From: Escherichia coli
Lineage (GTDB): Bacteria; Pseudomonadota; Gammaproteobacteria; Enterobacterales; Enterobacteriaceae
Assembly: GCF_003334305.1 (NCBI RefSeq)
Contig: NZ_QOWS01000027.1
Length of the DNA: 62,264 nt
Direction: 5' to 3' (one strand)
Part shown: piece after piece, positions 17,153-28,616 of the stretch
How the letters are laid out: each line of letters starts with the position of its first letter
How positions within the stretch are numbered: position 1 is the stretch's first letter
The notes under the pieces: model-generated
Told to the model about the DNA's origin: nothing
Databases searched by the model: none
The model's input: only the letters and a program-made list of their open reading frames with translations
Program-made: the position numbers and the translations under genes

Positions 17153-17851
17153 TTAGTTCCATGCATTTTTTGAGATCCCGGCCAAATAATGGTGCTGACG
17201 ATATTCCTCTGGCATCATATTGTTTAGTGATTCATACGGGCGTTCACAGTTATATTCTGACACCCATCTTTCAGTGATTTCCCGCACTTCATTCAGTGTT
17301 CTGAACAGATAAAAATCGAGTATTTCTGTACGGTATGTCCTGTTAAAACGCTCGATGAAAGCGTTCTGCGTCGGCTTACCCGGCTGGATAAACTCCAGTT
17401 TTACTGCATGTTTCTCTGCCCATTCAGCCAGTGCCAGTGAGATAAATTCCGGACCATTATCCATACGTAGCATGACCGGATAGCCACGGTTTGACGCGAT
17501 CCTGTTGAGTACACGAACCACTCGCAGAGCTGGCAGATTCAGATCGATTTCAATCGACAACGCCTCACGGTTAAAGTCATCAACGACATTAAACGTGCGA
17601 AAACGACGGCCACAGACTAGGGCATCATGCATAAAATCGACAGACCAGCTCTGGTTCAGCGCTTCCGGCGTGGCCAGTGGCGAGGGATTACGCACCAGCA
17701 ACCGCTGTTTGCCCTTACGGCGAAAGTTCAGCTTCAGCAGACAATAAATACGATGGATCCTTTTGTGATTCCACGGGTATCCCTGCCGCCGCAAAACCTG
17801 GAAAAGTTTCGGAAAACCGTATCGTGGGTATCGCTCTGCCACTGCCTGCAA
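17153..17851 (-). CDS. IS3-family transposase OrfB (DDE integrase core), expressed by -1 frameshift from orfA
   Basis: DDE-region motifs (NGPEF, QNAFIERFNRTYRTE, ERPYESL); true coding region extends upstream to the slippery site near 18004. Confidence 0.8.
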   Translation of the reverse strand: MQAVAERYPRYGFPKLFQVLRRQGYPWNHKRIHRIYCLLKLNFRRKGKQRLLVRNPSPLATPEALNQSWSVDFMHDALVCGRRFRTFNVVDDFNREALSIEIDLNLPALRVVRVLNRIASNRGYPVMLRMDNGPEFISLALAEWAEKHAVKLEFIQPGKPTQNAFIERFNRTYRTEILDFYLFRTLNEVREITERWVSEYNCERPYESLNNMMPEEYRQHHYLAGISKNAWN

Positions 17852-17984
17852 AGCGACAATAACGAGTTCGTCAGGCGTGGTATCCGGGCGGTAATGGTAA
17901 ACCGTTCTGCTCAGGTTCAGACTCCGGCAGGCCTGACGGATACTGAGTCCGAACGTCGTTATCAGATGAGTAACCAGCTCACGC

Positions 17985-18263
17985 TTAAAGGCTAGTTTTA
18001 AAGCTTTTTTCGATAACGTCTTTCAGCGCCCTGTTCTCAAGACTCAGGTCGGCAAACATCTGTTTGAGACGTGGGTTCTCGTCCTCAAGATCCTTGATCT
18101 TTTTAATATCAGAAGCCTCCATGCCACCGTATCTGGACTTCCAGTTGTAGTAGGTGGCTTCAGAAATACCGGCCTCCCGGCAGACATCTTTAACGGTTCG
18201 TCCGGCTTCAACTGACTTAATCACAGCGATGATCTGATGCTCAGTAAAACGGGCTTTACGCAT
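17985..18263 (-). CDS. IS3-family transposase OrfA (HTH)
   Basis: 92 aa, MRKARFTEHQIIAVIKSVEAGRTVKDVCREAGISEATYYNWKSRYGG; strong SD GAAGGAG upstream. Confidence 0.85.
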   Translation of the reverse strand: MRKARFTEHQIIAVIKSVEAGRTVKDVCREAGISEATYYNWKSRYGGMEASDIKKIKDLEDENPRLKQMFADLSLENRALKDVIEKSFKTSL

Positions 18264-18512: not shown

Positions 18513-21500
18513 TCAGCGCAACAATTTTCTAATATTTTGATGCGCTTGTGGCAGATTTGAACGAAGAAGATATTCATTAAAGGCTATATGAGCATTAGTA
18601 TTCTTTGACTTATATACGTCGTGTTGAAAGTCGGGTCGATCAATAAGACCAGGGTAACTTCCCACTGCAACAGAACGGTCATTCAAACTCACAATCATAG
18701 GTGCCTCCTGAGTTCCCTTAATTAGGCATTGAAAACCATCCAATTCCAGACTTGCCCTCAATTGAGACAATTTTTCTACCTGAATATCAGGTGAAGCACA
18801 ACGAGGAACCATTCCGTATAGAGCATAACGAAGTAAAGATGCACCTAGTTTCCTATCGAGACGGCTTTGTATATGCTGGTTGTGGAAATGATTGAGACAA
18901 TCTGTACAGGAGGTATCGCACTCACAACCTTCTAACAATGCGAGTGTTGCAGTAAGAATGTCATCTAGATTCGCTGCTGCTACTTCCGCATAACCCGCAC
19001 CGCCAGATAAAGTATCATAAAGGAAGAGATCCAATGCCTGAGTATCTTCCTCTATAGTGGGTAAAATTCTGAAACCAGAGCCAAACTCAGCAGGATCAAG
19101 ATCCAGTTGTTTATGGCGACTAGCTGCAAGCCTTAGTGCTTCCGCTATTGTATATAATGCATCTTCATACATCCGTAAAACGATAGCATTTGAAGTATCA
19201 GTTACAAGCGGAGACCCAACGGTTATTCGTAATAAAAGCAAATCAGTACGGAAATCATGTCCGAGAAAAACGCGTTTATACTCGCCAGAGCATAAGCGAG
19301 GCGTTTCCTTAGTTGCTATATATTTATACGGTCTTTCATGTGCCCCCTTTGCCGGTGAGTAGGAATCATAAACGGAGGCCGCACCACATTCGCAACATAC
19401 TGAAAAACCACTGGACCCCCCCTCATTTTTCCCTCGGTTCACCGTCACCAGTTTCTGATCTATTGCGTGAGTAAAAACAATATGAGCACCTCCATTATTG
19501 AACTTAAAATCTTCAGGATCAACAGGTTGTGGATATTGTGCCGCAGTTACATAGGTGATTTCTTGCTCTCTGTCGTCCTCATTAAGTTCCTTGGCATTTT
19601 CAGGTCCAAAGACTTCGGGCTGAATCATTATTTCTACTTTTAGAATGCCACCACAGATCGGACAAGTATTTTCGCTATTCTGATTATTATGAGGATCGCG
19701 GACAAAAGAGCACTTATCGCAATGAATAAACTTTTTGGGATTATTGAAAAGCTTTCTTGCCCGGTTTAGTTCGCCTTTCAATGCATTAGAAAAAACACCA
19801 CCAGAGCGATAGGTTTTCCTATCAATAACAATCAAACGTCCCGGGGCATATTCACTCAGAGCCTGAGAAATTGATTGCTGAGGCTGTTGTACTGTTCGCA
19901 CCTCAAAAGAACCTCTAATATTCTTTACAATTTTTTCTACCAAGAAACTACAGAGGCTTGTAGGAAATGCATAACTTGGTAATAAACCATGGTAAAACAG
20001 GAACTCAAGTAATTCTTCTTGTGCAAATTTCATTCCACCAGAAGTCTGCTCATCATCTTCATTTTCCTCATCAACAAGAACGGCAATTTGTGGAACAATT
20101 TCAGCCAGCCCATGGAGTGTATTTAAAAATTCCTCTGCTACCTTAGCAAACCAGTCACTGGCAGAAAGCCCTCCAGTTTCAAGAACAGGAGGAAGCCATG
20201 CTGCAACACTTGTTCTCAAATCACCATTAGTAGATAGAATACGGTTTTTAACCCAATTATTAAAGCTATCGAGATTTAGGCCAGTATCTTTTGCTCCATG
20301 AAAAAAATCTCGTGTAGTACCAAGTGCTTTCTCAAGTATGGCAGTTTTCTCTGTGGGATTATAAATTCCTTGTTCCATTAACTCGTGAAAAAAGGTCTGA
20401 ACTAAAAAAGAATGAACGTGTCTTCTGGCTATTTTGGGATTATTTACTTTCACTTCAGGTGTACGAGGAGAACCTGCAACAATGCGTTCAGGATTAAGGA
20501 AATAATAACTATCATGAGGGCCATTTTGAGAATATGTAACCACCGTTGAAACAGATGCGCCACGGCGGCCTGCTCGCCCAGCACGTTGCTGATAATTTTC
20601 TCGTTGCGGAGGGACGTTTCTTAAAGCAACAGCAACCAGAGATCCAATATCAACCCCCACTTCCATCGTCGTCGTACAACTAAGTACATCAATGGGCTTG
20701 TCGTTATCATTAATAAGAACATCTTGGAATCTCAGTTCGTAGAGTTCTGTAGTGGCATGAACGCTGGCCCTATCTCTATGTGAGAGTTGAGCAGTATGCT
20801 CTTCAACGCTAAGGTTTAGAAGCCGCGAATTTGAAACCAAAACTTCTTCTACCGGCGAACGCCAGAATCCTTTTCGTGCATTAATATAGCTGCTTTCCGA
20901 CGGCTCGACTGTTTTGACACTGTTACTACCACAAGCAAGGCAAGTAGAATGTTCTAAAGCAAATGGCATTAGTGCCGTGCAGTCATTACATTGTTTCCAG
21001 ACATGCAAGAGATCTATTTTCAGACGTAGTGCATTTGGAGCAAGAAAGTAGACACCATCTTTTCCTAATGTCAGATGAGTACGAAAAATCTCCTCCAAAA
21101 CTTCCACATAAAGCTCCCCCATAGCAGGATGCTGTATCAGGGTTTTCCTAAGAGCTTTTCCAAACCGTCCTTGACTACCCCAAGTGGGTTTGTAGAATCC
21201 AGCGGCTTTGATTCGTAGTGTCGAATCAATAGATTCATCAAAAGCAAATTCAGTGAGTAAGGTATCAATCCAAGCAACAGCTAAAGCATGAACATCCTTG
21301 CTCTCAATATTGAGCTTCTTGGACTGCACATCTTCCCACATTTTTTTTGATTTAAGCTGCGATGGTTCAACAAAACCAACTGTTGTTCCGGAAAGAGAAT
21401 AGTAATTGCTACATAAAAGTTTAAGCAACGCTATTTTATATCGTGACGGTGACTCTTGGGGACTGAAGTTATCATCAAAAGCTTGAGCCAGATCGCTATT

Positions 21501-24023
21501 ATAATCACGATAAAATTCATCACGGGCCATTACAACTTTTCGTGAATCTTCCCCATCAAAAATAAGCAAGTCATGTTCAGAAAGGACTGATAGGAAAGCA
21601 AGGTAAAGTACTGATGTTGGTTTGGGTTCCCGATTGATATCTTTCAGTTTAGAACAGGCGAGAGCAATGGATTGCCGAAACAAATCAAGCTCAATATCTC
21701 TAGGAATATCACGTGCAAGCCGAGCTGCTTTTTGTCGGCCATCAGAAAAAATAAGTACTTTTTTTCCCCCATTGGGATGTTTACCATCAATAGGACGACT
21801 CGCTGGCTGGTGAGATATCTGTGTACGTACTAACGTTGTAAAAGGTGCTTCCCCTTTTGTAACATGATCCATAATTTTAGACGGTTCATTCTGAGCACTT
21901 CTTGTCTTACGCATACAAACAGGGCATTCATCAAATGTAATTTCAGATCCAGACTTAACTCGGTCAGGTATAAAGACTTTACGATAACCAGAATCCTCAT
22001 CTTGACACTGTTTAGAAAGGCGTCCTGTTGCTATATGTAGCCATCTGTCCTGGTAATCACTATGTACATGAGGTGTTTCCTCGACCAATATATCTATGGG
22101 AACAAGATCGATATCCTCATCTTCTGATAATGGTCCGTTCGGCTGGTGCCATACAAAGTCCATTTCGGAACTAACGTATCCACGAATAAAAGCCGCACCG
22201 CAGTCACGGTGGGTAAATAATTCGTAGACTCGCCCTTTTGAAGCGCATTTACATTGATCCAGTGGTTTCGTATAAAGGCGGCCAAGTATAGTTGGCCCAC
22301 TATGGTTACCCAAACGTTGATTACAATCGGGATCTATACAGGCATAAAGACCTGGTAATCCCCGATAAAAAAGATGCATGCGAGTTGGAATAAGCACTCT
22401 GCCATCGGATGCCCTCTGAGCATAGCAACCCAATGCGAGTAATGCATCTGTCGCTCGCTCTGCAATTTGCTGTGGAGAGTCTGGAAAAAGGTTTTCACTC
22501 AAGATATTTAGCTTAACCGCTTTACCTGAAACTATTTCAATAAGCGTTTCAATAGGACCAAAACCAGTCAAATTATCAAATAACCAATTACGTAGTGTAC
22601 TATGATCTTTTATCATCGGCTTTTGCCAGCCCATTCGTTCGGCAAGAGACTCTATTGCTGCATATGCAGATTCAAGATCCTCAGCTACGCACTGAAATGA
22701 ATTTAGGTCGAATTCAGCCAGTGCATTAGCTTCTTTACTGGTAACAATTTGTGACTCAGGACGCGATTCCCTTGTACCCTCAATAATTCGAAATTTCCTC
22801 GAAGAGGTTGGTGATAAGCCAGTTAAGTCTTGGGCAAAACGTTCTCCATCCTCAATGGACCCTAGACTAGCACTGGTAAGGATGCAGCGCATACGTTCCC
22901 GGGGAATATCCAACCGAGCACAGAGGCGACGTATTAAAAGGGCTACCTCTGCTCCCCCTGCTCCTCTATACATATGCGCTTCATCAAGCACTAAGATAAG
23001 CTCATTCATCTCATCAGCTTTGAGCCATTCCTTAGTCTGCTCAAAAATATTACGCTCGATAGGTCGCATCAGCATATACTCAAGCATGGAGTAGTTCGTT
23101 ATCAGTAATTCTGGACAGCGATTCTGCATTTCATGCCGGGTCATTAGCTCACGATCCTCAGGCTGGGTAATTAGCCTCTCCCCCCAATTGTTCAAAACAA
23201 ATTGCTTACCCGTTTTTTTGCCTGAGACGTAGGTTTTAGCCTGAGATGCGCTTTGCCCATAAAAAGCATCAAGATCTTTACTTGGCCAGCGACCAATGCG
23301 GTTCAGTTCCGCACGTACGGGGGCGTTATTTGCGAGTTTATTGTAAAACTCATCGAAAAGGGGTTTGATAAAAAGCTCGTCTCGTCTAGAGCTACGACGA
23401 CCAGGGTAAGGCGTTCTTCCCGTATAAGCGCCAAAGCGTACAGGGGCACATCTTCCAGATCTCAGTATTTTAGAGGCTTCAGAATCACCAAAAAGACGTC
23501 TGATACGAGCAAGTTGATCGTTAACTAATGCATTCATTGGATATAATAAAATTGCTCTACAACCTGGAAGGGATGCAGATTTAGGTCTCTCGGAAGATTC
23601 AATCGCCAATTTACCAATAATTGGCATTAGAAAGCTTTCAGTCTTACCGGAGCCTGTACCTGTTGCAATGACCAGATCAGAAGCGTCTTCGCCAAGAAAT
23701 GACTCAAGTGCCTGTGATTGGTGTTTATAGGGGCGTTGATAGAGGCCAATTCCAAGTTCTGATAGTTGAGTTAGCACATTACTTGCTGCTTCGGGAATAG
23801 GCAATTCACTGTATGGCGCACCAGGTTCATAAATTGGGGTTGCTTCTATATAAGGAGCTTGAGCAATAGTTTCATTTTGCTGTAAAAGCGCTCGTCGCTC
23901 AGCAATTAACCCTTCATCCCGGATATGATATTGTGCCTCAATGTATTTTCTCAGATTCTCACTAAGGCTTTTCACGGTATCATGTATACCTGAACGTTCA
24001 GTTACTTTATTTTTATTAATCAT
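18513..24023 (-). CDS. druE: Giant SF2 DEAH-box helicase with Cys-rich C-terminal region; DruE-like (Druantia type I)
   Basis: 1836 aa; Walker A ATGTGSGKT (nt ~23643-23666), DEAH box ILVLDEAHM (~22971-22997), motif VI QRAGRAGRRG (~20559-20591), C-terminal Cys clusters (CDKCSF...CPICGG, CCECGAA, CECDTSCTDC) consistent with a DUF1998-like zinc-binding module. Confidence 0.8.
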   Translation of the reverse strand: MINKNKVTERSGIHDTVKSLSENLRKYIEAQYHIRDEGLIAERRALLQQNETIAQAPYIEATPIYEPGAPYSELPIPEAASNVLTQLSELGIGLYQRPYKHQSQALESFLGEDASDLVIATGTGSGKTESFLMPIIGKLAIESSERPKSASLPGCRAILLYPMNALVNDQLARIRRLFGDSEASKILRSGRCAPVRFGAYTGRTPYPGRRSSRRDELFIKPLFDEFYNKLANNAPVRAELNRIGRWPSKDLDAFYGQSASQAKTYVSGKKTGKQFVLNNWGERLITQPEDRELMTRHEMQNRCPELLITNYSMLEYMLMRPIERNIFEQTKEWLKADEMNELILVLDEAHMYRGAGGAEVALLIRRLCARLDIPRERMRCILTSASLGSIEDGERFAQDLTGLSPTSSRKFRIIEGTRESRPESQIVTSKEANALAEFDLNSFQCVAEDLESAYAAIESLAERMGWQKPMIKDHSTLRNWLFDNLTGFGPIETLIEIVSGKAVKLNILSENLFPDSPQQIAERATDALLALGCYAQRASDGRVLIPTRMHLFYRGLPGLYACIDPDCNQRLGNHSGPTILGRLYTKPLDQCKCASKGRVYELFTHRDCGAAFIRGYVSSEMDFVWHQPNGPLSEDEDIDLVPIDILVEETPHVHSDYQDRWLHIATGRLSKQCQDEDSGYRKVFIPDRVKSGSEITFDECPVCMRKTRSAQNEPSKIMDHVTKGEAPFTTLVRTQISHQPASRPIDGKHPNGGKKVLIFSDGRQKAARLARDIPRDIELDLFRQSIALACSKLKDINREPKPTSVLYLAFLSVLSEHDLLIFDGEDSRKVVMARDEFYRDYNSDLAQAFDDNFSPQESPSRYKIALLKLLCSNYYSLSGTTVGFVEPSQLKSKKMWEDVQSKKLNIESKDVHALAVAWIDTLLTEFAFDESIDSTLRIKAAGFYKPTWGSQGRFGKALRKTLIQHPAMGELYVEVLEEIFRTHLTLGKDGVYFLAPNALRLKIDLLHVWKQCNDCTALMPFALEHSTCLACGSNSVKTVEPSESSYINARKGFWRSPVEEVLVSNSRLLNLSVEEHTAQLSHRDRASVHATTELYELRFQDVLINDNDKPIDVLSCTTTMEVGVDIGSLVAVALRNVPPQRENYQQRAGRAGRRGASVSTVVTYSQNGPHDSYYFLNPERIVAGSPRTPEVKVNNPKIARRHVHSFLVQTFFHELMEQGIYNPTEKTAILEKALGTTRDFFHGAKDTGLNLDSFNNWVKNRILSTNGDLRTSVAAWLPPVLETGGLSASDWFAKVAEEFLNTLHGLAEIVPQIAVLVDEENEDDEQTSGGMKFAQEELLEFLFYHGLLPSYAFPTSLCSFLVEKIVKNIRGSFEVRTVQQPQQSISQALSEYAPGRLIVIDRKTYRSGGVFSNALKGELNRARKLFNNPKKFIHCDKCSFVRDPHNNQNSENTCPICGGILKVEIMIQPEVFGPENAKELNEDDREQEITYVTAAQYPQPVDPEDFKFNNGGAHIVFTHAIDQKLVTVNRGKNEGGSSGFSVCCECGAASVYDSYSPAKGAHERPYKYIATKETPRLCSGEYKRVFLGHDFRTDLLLLRITVGSPLVTDTSNAIVLRMYEDALYTIAEALRLAASRHKQLDLDPAEFGSGFRILPTIEEDTQALDLFLYDTLSGGAGYAEVAAANLDDILTATLALLEGCECDTSCTDCLNHFHNQHIQSRLDRKLGASLLRYALYGMVPRCASPDIQVEKLSQLRASLELDGFQCLIKGTQEAPMIVSLNDRSVAVGSYPGLIDRPDFQHDVYKSKNTNAHIAFNEYLLRSNLPQAHQNIRKLLR

Positions 24024-25063
24024 ATTTCATTCCGTCGCGTGAATTCGTTAATCCAAATAATACCAAGCCCTTCAAAAGCGCTACGCACTATGGGTAATAT
24101 TTCCTCGGGGAATACATGGTGTGTTATTCCTGAATGTTCATTTTCAAAACCTGATTCTCTCCAGCCTAGCAGGAGTACCTTCGTTTCTCGTCTTGGTAAT
24201 CTTCTGGTTAATCTTAATCTTGCTAGCCCATTAGATATTTTGATACGGATCTTTAGCGGACAATTATCTTTTGTATCGAGAAAAAAACGTAATCTTCTGA
24301 CATCATCAGACGATTCTAACGAATTCATTCTACATAAGCGTCCAGCTTCAATTTCTCCTAAATAATAGGAAAAGTGATTATCAACGGACATTCTGCATAA
24401 GTAGATTTGCTTTTTATTAAAAGAAAGTTCTGACAAATGGAGCCATTTTCCCCGCACATATGCAGTCGTTTCACTCATATTGCTAGGCGCATCGATAAAG
24501 CCGGAAATAGTTCCAGATAGTAGTCTGGATGACCATTCTTCATTGCCTTCTGCTGGGGCACCAATCCACTCATTTGCATCCCAGATTTCAACACTTCCAG
24601 TACACACTTTTTCTTCAACCAAGCGAACTCTTCCAGCAGATTTAGCTACCACGCCCGTTGAAAATGTACAGGAAGGCTCTCCACCAAAAAAAACAGCCAT
24701 CTTATTGTCAATTCGTACTGCATGTGGGGGAGCTGTGAGCCAATTACCACCTTCTAACTTAATCATGTCACCCAATTCAGCCAAGCTGTTCAATATAGAC
24801 ATAATGCCCGGATGTATAGCATTATCAATATCAGCAATGTCTGGCCATAAAGGTACCAATTTTCGCCTTACTGCACTAGTGAGTCGAAGCGAGGTTACAG
24901 TTTGCCTAGCTTCTTCTGTTTCAGATATAGAATATTGATATAATACGCTCCTTAAGCATTCTGAAACTGCTGAAATTCTTAACCCTTCATCATCAAATCG
25001 ACAATTTAATGCAGTTGATAACATATCCAGTGCTTTGTCTCGTGATACTGCTCTCCACTCCAT
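24020..25063 (-). CDS. druD: DruD-like protein (Druantia type I component, unknown function)
   Basis: ~347 aa from ATG at 25063 with SD GAGGAGG (track ORF extends to 25078); stop overlaps the druE start (ATGA). Confidence 0.6.
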   Translation of the reverse strand: MEWRAVSRDKALDMLSTALNCRFDDEGLRISAVSECLRSVLYQYSISETEEARQTVTSLRLTSAVRRKLVPLWPDIADIDNAIHPGIMSILNSLAELGDMIKLEGGNWLTAPPHAVRIDNKMAVFFGGEPSCTFSTGVVAKSAGRVRLVEEKVCTGSVEIWDANEWIGAPAEGNEEWSSRLLSGTISGFIDAPSNMSETTAYVRGKWLHLSELSFNKKQIYLCRMSVDNHFSYYLGEIEAGRLCRMNSLESSDDVRRLRFFLDTKDNCPLKIRIKISNGLARLRLTRRLPRRETKVLLLGWRESGFENEHSGITHHVFPEEILPIVRSAFEGLGIIWINEFTRRNEI

Positions 25064-25074
25064 TAACCACCTCC

Positions 25075-26958
25075 TCAAGAAGATATTTTTGCACTATAAT
25101 TTTTTAATTCACGATTGGCAATATCTTCTATCTTTTGGACGGGGCCACCTTTAATTTTTGCCCATGTAAGAGTATAAAAAGACAAGACAGAATAAAGATC
25201 ATAAATATAATTTCCATTAGGGACTCTTATGAGTGAAGTATAGAAAATATGAACCATTCTCTTCCACAAAGTTCCCCCATCAAATCCAGCTTCGTCCAGT
25301 AATGCTCTTAATTCATCTACATAATCATCAACACTATCAAGCTGTAGTCCATCAATATTTGTCCATTTATCCTTGGCAAGACAACCTGGTTTCAATTGGG
25401 GTAAAATAGCAGATAAACCACGCATTTTTAATGTATCAGTATCAATAACTGGTCCCAACTCGGCCAACATTCCTCCATCAGGGAATGTAGCAGGGCCTTG
25501 TTTCCAAGTAGCTATCAATGCCAGATGGTCATAATTTGTTGGATGTATTTGCCGTTGAACAACTATATCTCTAATTGCCGCTCCATAAATCTCAAATGCT
25601 GAAAGATTGGCCCCTTTCAAAAGGAGACAGCGAGATGATTCAGCTATAGTCTCTATAAAATCAAAAGAATCCATGTCAGAAATAATACCAACTGGAACTC
25701 TCCATATGTGATAACGTGGTGCACCAATAGCAATGGCAATTGCATCCGCGATAATATCTGCCAAAGAGCCACTGAATTGAATGATTTGTCCAGAAACGAA
25801 GGTAGCTAATGTCAATCTAGCCAATGTTTCTGCTGAATTTTTTGTTAACCCAACAGCCTGTAAATTTAAAGAAATTCTATTAGATATGTCTTCGGAGGAT
25901 GAAAGATATTCATAATTTTCATAGTGCGCTATTTCATGGAATTTTGTAAATCTATTGGTGACACTCACTTTGCTAGCTTGAGATGTGTTTATTTCCAGTG
26001 TATCTATTCGTTCAGTGAGTTTTTTTAATTCATTGATATAATCTAACTCGTTGTTCTTTCTTTTATTATCACACAAGATAGTTAATGCATTTTTTAACTC
26101 TGAAATTTCATTAGCCATACTTTTTATCAATTTTTCATGCTCAGAAATGTCATTCATAGCCAGAGCATTAAAATCTAATTTCTCTTGAAGAGATAATATT
26201 AGCTGTTTGTTTTTTTCATTAAAATGATAAAGCTCGTCAATAGATTTATTAGCAATATCAGATTGTTTAGTCTCTGAGTTTATTAAGGATTGTAGTTCGT
26301 TAATTATTTTTAAATTGCTCTTTTCATTATTAAAGTAATTATCAAACCGTTCGGAAAAAGCATCTATTTTTAACTCAAGCTCTTTAATATGGTTATTTTT
26401 TTTCTCCACATTATCGGCAATTAAACTAATACGTGCTTCAAGCTCATCTAAACGAATTGGAAGAGTATCAACCACGATATCGCGGGCAAGAACAACTGCA
26501 GGAGGAAAAAGGTTAAATGCATTTATAACGTCTGGATCATTAGCAAACCCACTAAAGATAAACAGGCGCTCGATATTCTCTCTAGCAACTTTAGGAAAGT
26601 TTTTAGCAAGCTCTCTAATAAAAATAGAGCCAGAGTTTTCTTTTAATCCTAAATTATTAATCATACTAAATGATTTGTCAATTTTCTCTTCAGCCCAAAA
26701 CTGCCAAAAAAGAGAAAAACTTTTCCATGCTTTTCTCTCCTCAGAGGAAGGATGTGACTGGAACATATACCCAATCAATCTTTTCTGTTTTTCTTTAATT
26801 TCAGTGGGATGTCCTGCCCTGAATCCCGGTACTTTTGGTAAACAACCAAAAGCTTTACGTCGTAAAGTTGGAGAAATCTCATTGATAAAGTTAACAATTT
26901 CGGATTGTCCCAACTTAGAGATCCGTTCCTTTGCCTCTTGGCTATATTGGTAACTCAT
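25075..26958 (-). CDS. druC: DruC-like protein (Druantia type I component) with predicted coiled-coil region
   Basis: 627 aa; K/E/L-rich heptad-like central segment; ATG start at 26958. Confidence 0.6.
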   Translation of the reverse strand: MSYQYSQEAKERISKLGQSEIVNFINEISPTLRRKAFGCLPKVPGFRAGHPTEIKEKQKRLIGYMFQSHPSSEERKAWKSFSLFWQFWAEEKIDKSFSMINNLGLKENSGSIFIRELAKNFPKVARENIERLFIFSGFANDPDVINAFNLFPPAVVLARDIVVDTLPIRLDELEARISLIADNVEKKNNHIKELELKIDAFSERFDNYFNNEKSNLKIINELQSLINSETKQSDIANKSIDELYHFNEKNKQLILSLQEKLDFNALAMNDISEHEKLIKSMANEISELKNALTILCDNKRKNNELDYINELKKLTERIDTLEINTSQASKVSVTNRFTKFHEIAHYENYEYLSSSEDISNRISLNLQAVGLTKNSAETLARLTLATFVSGQIIQFSGSLADIIADAIAIAIGAPRYHIWRVPVGIISDMDSFDFIETIAESSRCLLLKGANLSAFEIYGAAIRDIVVQRQIHPTNYDHLALIATWKQGPATFPDGGMLAELGPVIDTDTLKMRGLSAILPQLKPGCLAKDKWTNIDGLQLDSVDDYVDELRALLDEAGFDGGTLWKRMVHIFYTSLIRVPNGNYIYDLYSVLSFYTLTWAKIKGGPVQKIEDIANRELKNYSAKISS

Positions 26959-26969
26959 TCGAAGGCACC

Positions 26970-28616
26970 TTATCTAAAGCGATTACATTCAAATCCATTG
27001 GTCTTAACTTCTTTTACCAATGCTCTATAATGCGGTAATAAGTGTGGTTCCGGCTGCAAATCCACTAATTTCTCAACTAATAAAAAATCATTATTTAAAC
27101 TAAAACCATGGAGGGTGTGCCCCATTTGAAGTATAAAACTTAATATCCGTGAGCGAAGATTAGGAGATAATTCAATAAATTCCCCGTCATCTAATGATAA
27201 CATAGAAGAACTAGGTAAAAATATTTTACCAAGACCTAAAAAATCTATTTCTACATGACATGTTAAGTTTGCTAAGCAATCAGATAATTGAGATAACGCA
27301 ACAGGAGATAGTAACCGCATGCTCTTATCATGAGCTGCAATGTCATCATTAGAAACTAACTTAATAACACTACTTTCAGTTTGTCTTTGAATTCTTGCCA
27401 CTCCTTCAACACCAGAAGGCATAGACATGTATTCTAATTTATGGCCAAACATTCGTGCTTCCATCATAACTTCAATGCATCTTCTTTGATGTAAGGAAAC
27501 GATGGTCTTTTCTTTATTCCTCTTAGTAAAAACCAAATCTATTGAGGGATATTTTCTGGGTACAGAAACGTTTTTTTTATAGAAAGAAAAAAATAAGTTT
27601 ACGTCCTGCTCAATTGAGCCAGAAACGCCCACAAAGTCATTTTCTCCAGGATTAAGAATGAAGAAAGCAGGTGATTTTTCAACACCAATCGCTGAAAGTA
27701 ATAAAGAGGAACCTTGTGCGTACATAGTTGGTCCAACATTTTCTGATGATGTTGGTGCCATATTTGCTGACAACAATATTGTGTCAGAATGAACACATTC
27801 GACATGATTAATACTTGTTTTTTGATTTAGGAACGGCCAAATTGCTGTAATAGATGTTCTGGCAGGAACAACAGGAAGGTATGTAAAAGATTTTAGCCAT
27901 GAAATACTCTCCACAGAAGGGACTTCAGGAATTGTAACAAGAGCTAAATTCCATCCCTGTTTACTAGCTAAACTTTTTATTTCTAATTCATCAGGAAAAT
28001 CTGGAGCAACAGGGTGTCGCCAAAGAAAGGCAAATGTTTCAGTACATCTTAACTCTTGTGCTCGTGGAAATCCCTTCGATGCCCCACGCCCTAAAGCAGT
28101 GAAAACTGCTGCTCCCTCAGAAGGTAAACCGGGGCATTCTCTTTCAACTTCTGTTACAAATTTTGGATCGGGTTCACCACTATATGAAACAATACGGTAA
28201 GATTTTACTGATAATTCAGCACCAATCTGGCGACTCTTTACCATACTCCTCATATCAAGCGTTTGGCTTCTGCCTCCTACATCTAACGTTATCTTTGCTC
28301 TACATAAATTACAGGTTGGCAACACTAATTCTAATGACCACTCTCGACTATTACTTCCGACAGGAATCAATAAGCGCAAATCCATATATCGCTTTGAAAT
28401 AGTTTTAATAGTTTCGATAATGATGGAATTTCCGGGAACAAAATTTTCACAGTCTGACGTACCATGTCCGGGCAAATGAGCAAAATATGGGGGTATAACC
28501 TTCCCTTTACGGAGGTTAACACCTTTTTTACAAACTGGGCAAACATATTGAGCATATTTCGTTGCTCGAGCTGCTAATATCAGTGTCCCGGTGAACTTAT
28601 CAATAGCGTAATTCAC
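26970..28616 (-). CDS. druB: DruB-like protein (Druantia type I component)
   Basis: 548 aa; apparent GTG start with SD GGGGGAG; N-terminal CPVCKK...HLPGHGTSDC zinc-ribbon-like motif. Confidence 0.6.
   Translation of the reverse strand: MNYAIDKFTGTLILAARATKYAQYVCPVCKKGVNLRKGKVIPPYFAHLPGHGTSDCENFVPGNSIIIETIKTISKRYMDLRLLIPVGSNSREWSLELVLPTCNLCRAKITLDVGGRSQTLDMRSMVKSRQIGAELSVKSYRIVSYSGEPDPKFVTEVERECPGLPSEGAAVFTALGRGASKGFPRAQELRCTETFAFLWRHPVAPDFPDELEIKSLASKQGWNLALVTIPEVPSVESISWLKSFTYLPVVPARTSITAIWPFLNQKTSINHVECVHSDTILLSANMAPTSSENVGPTMYAQGSSLLLSAIGVEKSPAFFILNPGENDFVGVSGSIEQDVNLFFSFYKKNVSVPRKYPSIDLVFTKRNKEKTIVSLHQRRCIEVMMEARMFGHKLEYMSMPSGVEGVARIQRQTESSVIKLVSNDDIAAHDKSMRLLSPVALSQLSDCLANLTCHVEIDFLGLGKIFLPSSSMLSLDDGEFIELSPNLRSRILSFILQMGHTLHGFSLNNDFLLVEKLVDLQPEPHLLPHYRALVKEVKTNGFECNRFR

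What the first reader, a model, noticed from the sequence alone, without database searches (positions are those of the whole stretch)
25075..28616. DruB-like and DruC-like proteins: N-terminal zinc-ribbon-like motif and long coiled coil
The 548-aa protein starts (apparent GTG start) with CPVCKK(x17)HLPGHGTSDC, a treble-clef or zinc-ribbon-like arrangement. The 627-aa protein has an extended K/E/L/N-rich heptad-like segment (ELKNALTILCDNKRKNNELDYINELKKLTERIDTLEI...) suggestive of a coiled coil. Both are unannotated features in proteins of unknown function.
Basis: seen in the sequence. Interest (0 to 1): 0.4.

Follow-up and report, generated by a model that had tools for sequence, protein, structure and literature searches.

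The report
Known Druantia DruB and DruC features
The two genes are the already catalogued DruB and DruC of an E. coli Druantia type I anti-phage operon: the zinc-finger motif and the long coiled coil are real and conserved, but both are already in Pfam or a 2025 preprint, so this is a sound, ordinary finding.

Summary
Both observations hold. The window is E. coli chromosome, and 25075-28616 (minus strand) is exactly druC plus druB of a Druantia type I operon (druA-E), 100% identical to RefSeq-annotated genes.

**DruB.** C26, C29, H47 and C56 are invariant in 49 homologs down to 37% identity. H51 is not conserved. The motif matches Pfam CoiA_N (PF25164, E=4.7e-8), the putative zinc finger of competence protein CoiA. 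No CoiA nuclease domain follows. The rest is mostly beta-rich, with weak tandem FN3/Ig-like matches.

A 2025 preprint already describes Druantia I/II as encoding inactivated McrB-like (CnuB) homologs with extended coiled coils.

Not verified: zinc geometry, oligomeric state and function. My working model, which is inferred, is that both proteins are non-catalytic adaptors for the DruE helicase. Novelty is low.

The parts
26970..28616 (-). druB coding sequence (548 aa, GTG start, Shine-Dalgarno-like GGGGGAG upstream)
   Evidence: ORF list; translation; upstream sequence; PADLOC DruB E=3.4e-270; identical RefSeq druB coordinates
28440..28559 (-). DruB residues 20-59: CoiA_N-type CCHC zinc-finger motif. 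Ligand codons: C26 28539-28541, C29 28530-28532, H47 28476-28478, C56 28449-28451
   Evidence: Pfam CoiA_N PF25164 E=4.7e-8 and DUF7830 E=7.5e-4. All four residues are invariant in 49 homologs and H51 is variable. AF2 places the CxxC before strand 32-36 and H47 at the end of strand 44-47, with pLDDT 83-88 up to residue 50 and 65 for 51-60
27207..28394 (-). DruB residues 75-470: mostly beta-rich body, with helices at 235-245, 380-390 and 438-449. Weak tandem FN3/Ig/macroglobulin-like similarity, no recognisable catalytic domain. Contains a second conserved Cys trio (C102, C105, C161)
26973..27179 (-). DruB residues 480-548: C-terminal helical region
   Evidence: AF2 helices 485-497, 510-518 and 524-539
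25075..26958 (-). druC coding sequence (627 aa)
   Evidence: PADLOC DruC E=0; RefSeq druC
26509..26958 (-). DruC residues 1-150: conserved all-helical N-terminal domain with no detectable relatives
   Evidence: AF2 helices; 24 invariant columns; no PDB or Pfam hit
25999..26499 (-). DruC residues 154-320: coiled-coil rod (AF2 helix 154-299, short break, helix 307-320)
   Evidence: AF2. The profile hits only tropomyosin, myosin and MCP coiled coils over 157-347. Heptad periodicity z=4.8 here and median 5.5 in 53 homologs, with segment length 152-165 aa. Almost no Pro at 168-330, and the only internal insertion is exactly 7 residues. Sequence conservation is low, 0.31-0.42
25078..25941 (-). DruC residues 340-627: degenerate AAA+ module (alpha/beta base plus helical lid). 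Walker A position reads QFSGSLAD (394-401, DNA 25756-25779). Walker B position reads CLLLKGANLSAFE (444-456, DNA 25591-25629)
28638..29852 (-). druA (context; RefSeq start)
   Evidence: PADLOC; Pfam DruA PF14236; RefSeq
24020..25063 (-). druD (context; RefSeq start)
   Evidence: PADLOC; RefSeq; no Pfam, PDB or McrC similarity
18513..24023 (-). druE, YprA-like SF2 helicase (context)
   Evidence: PADLOC DruE E=0; RefSeq

Best explanation
**What it is (shown).** These are DruB and DruC, the second and third genes of a horizontally acquired Druantia type I anti-phage operon (druA-B-C-D-E) in an E. coli genomic island.

- **DruB** begins with a small CCHC zinc-finger-type module (C26-x2-C29-x17-H47-x8-C56). 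It is of the same Pfam family as the N-terminal finger of competence protein CoiA. A flexible linker follows, then mostly beta-rich domains with weak FN3/Ig-like matches, then a helical tail. No enzyme domain was found.
- **DruC** is a three-part rod-shaped protein. It has a conserved helical head with no known relatives, then a proline-free heptad-repeat helix of about 130-165 residues whose length is nearly fixed across the family, then an AAA+ module of the MoxR/McrB/dynein clade.
- In the DruC AAA+ module the Walker A lysine is absent in every family member examined. The Walker B Asp-Glu pair is replaced by Lys/Arg-Gly in DruC proper and mostly by Glu-Gly in distant members.

**How it most likely works (inferred).**
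- Neither protein is an enzyme. Both probably act as assembly or recognition subunits for the DruE helicase.
- The dead AAA+ module and the coiled coil of DruC probably drive oligomerisation. They would hold the N-terminal head at a fixed distance, as a scaffold or ruler derived from a McrB/CnuB-like motor.
- The basic zinc finger of DruB probably contacts nucleic acid, or a partner subunit, to help direct DruE to phage DNA.
For: **Identity and context.**
- Megablast gives 100% identity to RefSeq-annotated druB/druC in 64 E. coli genomes.
- PADLOC hits are full length for all five genes.
- The same druA-E order is found at 37% identity in Rheinheimera.
- G+C is 0.34-0.42 over the operon, against about 0.50 for the chromosomal flanks beyond the tRNA-Phe. 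A tRNA-Phe and an integrase lie next to the island.

**DruB finger.**
- Pfam CoiA_N E=4.7e-8.
- The four ligands are invariant in 49 homologs.
- CoiA is described as having a putative N-terminal zinc finger (10.1101/2024.02.06.579203).
- Net charge of residues 1-59 has a median of +4 across homologs.

**DruB has no nuclease.** There is no CoiA nuclease hit even at E<=10. Fold searches return only beta-sandwich matches.

**DruC rod.**

**DruC AAA+ module.**
- G397 and S398 are invariant, position 400 is Ala/Ser, D401 is 52/53, K448 is K50/R3, and G449 and N451 are invariant.
- No Walker A lysine in 144 representatives. The wide-family motif is h-h-h-h-E-G-[IVA]-N-R-S-A, which resembles McrB FIIDEINRAN (sequence seen).
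- The published statement that Druantia I/II encode inactivated CnuB homologs with extended coiled coils agrees.
Against: - Zinc binding and ligand geometry were not measured.
- The oligomeric state of the rod is unknown, because AF2 was run on a monomer only.
- DruD shows no similarity to McrC, so a McrBC-like pairing is unsupported.
- The degenerate Walker positions are invariant rather than drifting. They could therefore still bind some ligand.
- The scaffold and adaptor roles are pure inference. No experiment on DruB or DruC was found in the literature searches.
Confidence: 0.6

Rival explanations
1. DruB is a CoiA-family nuclease, as some NCBI and UniRef records name it ('competence protein CoiA family protein'). 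On this reading it cuts phage DNA or recombination intermediates.
For: Pfam CoiA_N match. Source names for homologs. CoiA is a PD-(D/E)XK enzyme acting on D-loops. Conserved acidic and polar residues lie in the first beta domain: D/E79, E96, D112, Q118, D150.
Confidence: 0.05
2. DruC is an active McrB-like NTPase motor that translocates or remodels DNA.
For: Complete AAA+ fold with lid. Strongly conserved pocket residues, and conserved R463/R469 that could act as sensor or finger residues.
Against: The Walker A lysine is replaced by Ala/Ser in 53 of 53 homologs and is absent in all 144 family representatives. The Walker B Asp-Glu is replaced by Lys/Arg-Gly or Glu-Gly.
Confidence: 0.04
3. The DruB finger is a protein-protein interaction or purely structural module, for example docking onto DruA, DruC or the zinc-binding modules of DruE. 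On this reading it is not a nucleic-acid reader.
For: Small zinc fingers often mediate protein contacts. DruE-family helicases carry several zinc-binding modules. The finger is tethered by a disordered, variable linker (residues 60-73, pLDDT<50).
Against: The finger region is consistently basic, and its only characterised relative (CoiA) is a DNA enzyme. Neither point is decisive.
Confidence: 0.3
4. The long DruC helix is a single stable alpha-helix spacer or a folded-back hairpin, not an intermolecular coiled coil.
For: AF2 monomer draws one straight helix. The segment is highly charged, 34% KRED.
Against: Hydrophobic a/d periodicity is well above shuffles and is conserved. The profile matches two-stranded coiled coils. 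There is no conserved Gly/Pro turn at the midpoint, and the only internal insertion is exactly one heptad.
Confidence: 0.1

Closest known systems
Druantia type I DruB and DruC (Doron et al. 2018 system; PADLOC PDLC00005/PDLC00006; RefSeq WP_021548591.1 and WP_000122057.1)
   Same: Identical proteins: 100% nucleotide identity, full-length model matches and the same five-gene operon.
   Different: Nothing. This is that system.
Competence protein CoiA (Pfam CoiA_N PF25164 plus the PF06054 nuclease)
   Same: The N-terminal CxxC...FAH...C finger.
   Different: DruB lacks the PD-(D/E)XK nuclease and the CoiA C-terminal region. It carries mostly beta-rich domains instead.
CnuB/McrB-like coiled-coil GTPases of CoCoNuT systems (Bell et al. 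2024, 2025)
   Same: The architecture is a coiled coil followed by an AAA+ module of the McrB/MoxR clade. The preprint explicitly files Druantia I/II as 'Type IV CoCoNuT' with inactivated CnuB homologs. There is a remnant -G-x-N-R/L-S-A- motif, compared with McrB -DEINRAN-.
   Different: The Walker A and B catalytic residues are lost. There is no sequence-profile match to McrB. No McrC-like partner was detected.
MoxR-family AAA+ ATPase RavA (PDB 3nbx)
   Different: Only 11% identity. RavA is an active ATPase without the N-terminal head or the coiled-coil rod.

Membership tests
Druantia type I DruB / DruC | Full-length match to the family models | tested here: met
   PADLOC DruB 1-548 E=3.4e-270 and DruC 1-626 E=0
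Druantia type I DruB / DruC | Location in a druA-druB-druC-druD-druE operon | tested here: met
   All five genes are co-directional with 11-21 nt gaps, or a 4-nt overlap at druD/druE. Same order in Rheinheimera
Druantia type I DruB / DruC | Protection against phage | not testable with these tools
   Rests on published work on the E. coli type I system (cited)
Zinc finger (CoiA_N type) | Four conserved metal-ligand residues | tested here: met
   C26, C29, H47 and C56 are invariant in 49 of 49 sequences. Pfam PF25164 E=4.7e-8
Zinc finger (CoiA_N type) | Tetrahedral ligand geometry and bound zinc | not testable with these tools
Only the secondary structure is known
Classical zinc ribbon / treble clef | Two CxxC knuckles on beta-hairpins (ribbon), or the last two ligands from a helix N-terminus (treble clef) | tested here: inconclusive
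   Only one CxxC knuckle is present. The second ligand pair is H-x8-C, with no helix predicted after strand 44-47
Competence protein CoiA family | PD-(D/E)XK nuclease domain (PF06054) after the finger | tested here: not met
   No hit even at E<=10. The downstream fold is beta-rich, with Ig/FN3-like matches only
Coiled coil | Long uninterrupted helix with heptad hydrophobic periodicity, conserved in homologs | tested here: met
Coiled coil | Two or more helices packed together | not testable with these tools
   Only a monomer prediction was possible
AAA+ (MoxR/McrB/dynein clade) | AAA+ alpha/beta base plus helical lid fold | tested here: met
Active McrB/CnuB GTPase | Walker A GxxGxGK[ST] and Walker B hhhhDE | tested here: not met
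   The motifs read QFSGSLAD and LLLKG. There is no Walker A lysine in 53 homologs or in 144 representatives
Active McrB/CnuB GTPase | Sequence-profile homology to McrB | tested here: not met
   hhalign probability 0.3% and 0.15%. PDB profile searches returned nothing relevant. The target was a single sequence, so sensitivity was low
McrBC/CoCoNuT module | Adjacent McrC/CnuC-like nuclease partner | tested here: not met
   DruD profile against E. coli McrC gives probability 0.09%. No PDB or Pfam hit.

The most novel reading that the evidence does not exclude
DruC may be a pseudo-AAA+ scaffold. Its nucleotide pocket would be filled by a conserved charge swap: an Asp where the Walker A Ser/Thr sits, and a Lys where the Walker B Asp sits. 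Its fixed-length coiled coil would act as a molecular ruler between an unknown N-terminal sensor head and the DruE helicase. DruB would use a CoiA-type finger to read branched or D-loop-like DNA. Together this would give Druantia type I a structure-sensing front end distinct from DruH of type III.
Probability: 0.15. Interest if true: 0.5.

Novelty: already known. Interest (0 to 1): 0.18.

Why it matters
Druantia type I is one of the broadest-acting E. coli defence systems, yet the literature searched here offers no mechanism for DruA-D. Three points narrow the hypotheses: DruB carries a CoiA-type finger without a nuclease, DruC is a dead AAA+ on a fixed-length coiled coil, and no catalytic domain is detectable in either. 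This gives direct mutational targets: the four finger ligands, the rod length, and D401/K448. It does not change the picture a specialist already has from Pfam and the 2025 YprA-helicase preprint.

Tried and rejected
- **McrB homology for DruC.** Profile-profile comparison of DruC against E. coli McrB gave no signal, using both the full alignment A2 and the wide C-domain alignment A4.
- **PDB profile searches for DruC.** The C-domain profiles returned nothing relevant. The N-domain returned nothing significant, and Pfam found nothing in 18 members.
- **DruD as a McrC-like partner.** I built a 35-sequence alignment. hhalign against McrC and a PDB search were both negative, and Pfam was empty.
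- **Other family libraries.** NCBIfam and PHROGs gave no hits for any of the proteins tested.
- **Whole-protein PDB profile search for DruB.** The only hit was a spurious portal protein at E=0.03.
- **CoiA-like nuclease reading of DruB.** Rejected, because no nuclease domain was found.
- **HNH-like reading of the CxxC...H motif.** Considered and dropped, because no helix follows the His strand.
- **Literature.** I looked for any experimental work on DruB or DruC and found none. The searches returned type III DruE/DruH studies, one type I anti-defence preprint and one in-silico survey.
- **Zinc geometry.** Ligand distances in the AF2 model could not be measured, because coordinates are not exposed to the scripting tool.
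Full report
**Location and identity**

The interval 25075-28616 holds two minus-strand ORFs: 26970-28616 (548 aa, GTG start) and 25075-26958 (627 aa). Upstream and downstream on the same strand lie three more ORFs. PADLOC models identify the five as DruA, DruB, DruC, DruD and DruE of Druantia type I, each matched over its full length.

Megablast finds the 3.5 kb stretch at 100% identity in E. coli chromosomes. It occurs in 64 of 5426 complete genomes, where RefSeq already labels the genes druB and druC. The neighbourhood in strain A7 shows:
- an IS3 element and an ISEc18 element flanking the operon
- a tyrosine recombinase and tRNA-Phe (window 34436-34511)
- G+C of 0.34-0.42 over the operon, against about 0.50 for the chromosomal flanks beyond the tRNA-Phe

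It is therefore a horizontally acquired defence island. The GTG start of druB has a GGGGGAG Shine-Dalgarno-like sequence 4 nt upstream. It agrees with RefSeq, and homologs align from residue 1.

**DruB**

The quoted motif is present. A search of 5.8 billion proteins returned 95 homologs. In an alignment of 49 of them, reaching down to 37% identity, C26, C29, H47 and C56 are invariant. The likely ligand set is therefore C-x2-C-x17-H-x8-C.

Pfam assigns residues 20-50 to CoiA_N (PF25164, E=4.7e-8), with a weaker hit to DUF7830. Most homologs carry the same precomputed assignment, and some source names read 'CoiA-like N-terminal domain'. A preprint on CoiA describes this region as a small putative zinc finger preceding the PD-(D/E)XK nuclease (10.1101/2024.02.06.579203).

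DruB does not have that nuclease:
- No further Pfam domain appears even at E<=10.
- The AlphaFold2 model (mean pLDDT 83.4) shows a disordered linker at 60-73, then about 25 strands, then a small alpha/beta region and a helical tail.

In the model the CxxC pair precedes strand 32-36 and H47 ends strand 44-47. No helix follows, so neither a textbook zinc ribbon nor a treble clef can be asserted. I could not measure ligand distances because the coordinates are not exposed. The finger region is consistently basic, with a median net charge of +4 in 59 residues. This is compatible with nucleic-acid binding but weak as evidence.

**DruC**

Pfam finds nothing significant. A 53-sequence alignment shows conserved N-terminal (1-160) and C-terminal (365-600) parts. 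They are separated by a poorly conserved middle, with column conservation of 0.31-0.42.

AlphaFold2 (mean pLDDT 79.8) gives the following:
- a helical head
- one uninterrupted helix at 154-299
- a short break, then helix 307-320
- a disordered linker
- an alpha/beta domain with a helical lid

The middle part behaves as a coiled coil:
- The family profile hits tropomyosin, myosin and chemoreceptor coiled coils over positions 157-347.
- Hydrophobic 3.5-residue periodicity is z=4.8 above shuffles in the query (5.0 in a separate shuffle run). The median over 53 homologs is 5.5. The flanking domains give 0.1-1.0.
- The segment length stays within 152-165 residues.
- Proline is essentially absent from 168-330 in every homolog.
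- The only internal insertion is exactly seven residues.

**The DruC C-terminal domain**

- The Walker A position reads Q-F-S-G-S-L-A-D. G397 and S398 are invariant, Ala or Ser replaces the lysine, and D401 is present in 52 of 53.
- The Walker B position reads L-L-L-K-G. K448 is K50/R3 and G449 is invariant. An invariant N451, S453, A454, F455 and E456 follow.

A profile of this domain searched against 1.84 billion representatives found 284 clusters. All of them are proteins of about 600-740 residues with the domain at the C-terminus, and the ten sampled are all DruC by PADLOC. None of 144 aligned representatives has a Walker A lysine. The family-wide Walker B region is h-h-h-h-E-G-[IVA]-N-R-S-A-[FL]-[ED] (residue numbers printed there are one too low). 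This resembles E. coli McrB FIIDEINRANLSKVFGE, whose sequence is visible. From memory, MoxR proteins share a DEINRA motif too, so this does not discriminate between the two.

Sequence-profile tests against McrB and against the whole PDB were negative. The fold-level assignment to the MoxR/McrB clade is therefore solid. The specific CnuB/McrB ancestry rests on the literature, not on my tests.

**What was already known**

I found no experimental work on DruB or DruC. The 2026 Druantia papers concern type III DruE/DruH, and one 2024 preprint reports a phage anti-Druantia-I gene and methylation changes.

**Mechanism**

Shown: a conserved CCHC finger of the CoiA_N family, the absence of a recognisable catalytic domain in DruB, a conserved heptad rod of near-constant length, and a complete AAA+ fold with lost catalytic residues in DruC.

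Inferred: both proteins are non-enzymatic subunits that assemble with, position or target the DruE helicase.
- The DruC rod and dead AAA+ module would act as an oligomerisation scaffold or ruler descended from a McrB/MoxR-type motor.
- The DruB finger would be a nucleic-acid or partner contact.

I put about 0.85 on the structural description and about 0.35 on the functional model.

DruD, which would be the expected McrC-like partner under the CoCoNuT reading, shows no similarity to McrC, the PDB or Pfam. That part of the analogy is unsupported here.

**Verdict**

The genes and features are already known, so interest is low.

Noticed in passing
window 28134-28313 (DruB C102, C105, C161): A second cysteine cluster in DruB is nearly invariant: C102 46/49, C105 45/49, C161 48/49. 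Each exception loses only one Cys of the CxxC pair. H376, H429 and H529 are also conserved (41-47 of 49). This could be a second metal site or a structural cluster in the first beta domain.
   Followed up: partly
window 25756-25779 and 25591-25629 (DruC 394-401, 444-456): The dead Walker positions are themselves invariant, and they look like a charge swap. D401 sits where the Walker A Ser/Thr would be, and K448 sits where the Walker B Asp would be. In more distant DruC relatives the second position is mostly Glu, followed by G-[IVA]-N-R-S-A.
   Followed up: partly
window 25999-26499 (DruC rod): Rod length is held to 152-165 residues across 53 homologs despite only 31-42% column conservation. 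The only internal insertion (3 sequences, after residue 249) is exactly one heptad.
   Followed up: yes
window 17153-18263, 30229-31200, 32976-34238, 34436-34511: The operon sits between an IS3-family element and ISEc18. Next to it are a frameshifted phosphoethanolamine transferase pseudogene (about 31210-32711), a tyrosine integrase and tRNA-Phe. This is a tRNA-Phe-integrated island that also carries pgt and fimbrial genes.
   Followed up: partly
L003 521-5233 and 16874-17545: In Rheinheimera marina the homologous druA-E operon lies immediately downstream of Tn7-like genes (TniB/TnsC, TniQ/TnsD, TnsE). A gene with a weak Mom-domain hit follows it. The system therefore also appears to travel as transposon cargo.
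   Followed up: no
protein P0230 (742 aa, metagenomic): A distant DruC-family member combines the DruC-type dead AAA+ domain (residues 440-697) with an N-terminal part matching the type II DruG model (residues 21-374, E=9e-9). This hints that DruC and DruG share their head and rod.
   Followed up: no
window 25063-25078 and 29852-29870: The longest-ORF starts for druD (TTG at 25078) and druA (TTG at 29870) are probably too long. RefSeq starts at 25063 and 29852, and the PADLOC models begin at residues 6 and 7 of the long ORFs.
   Followed up: yes
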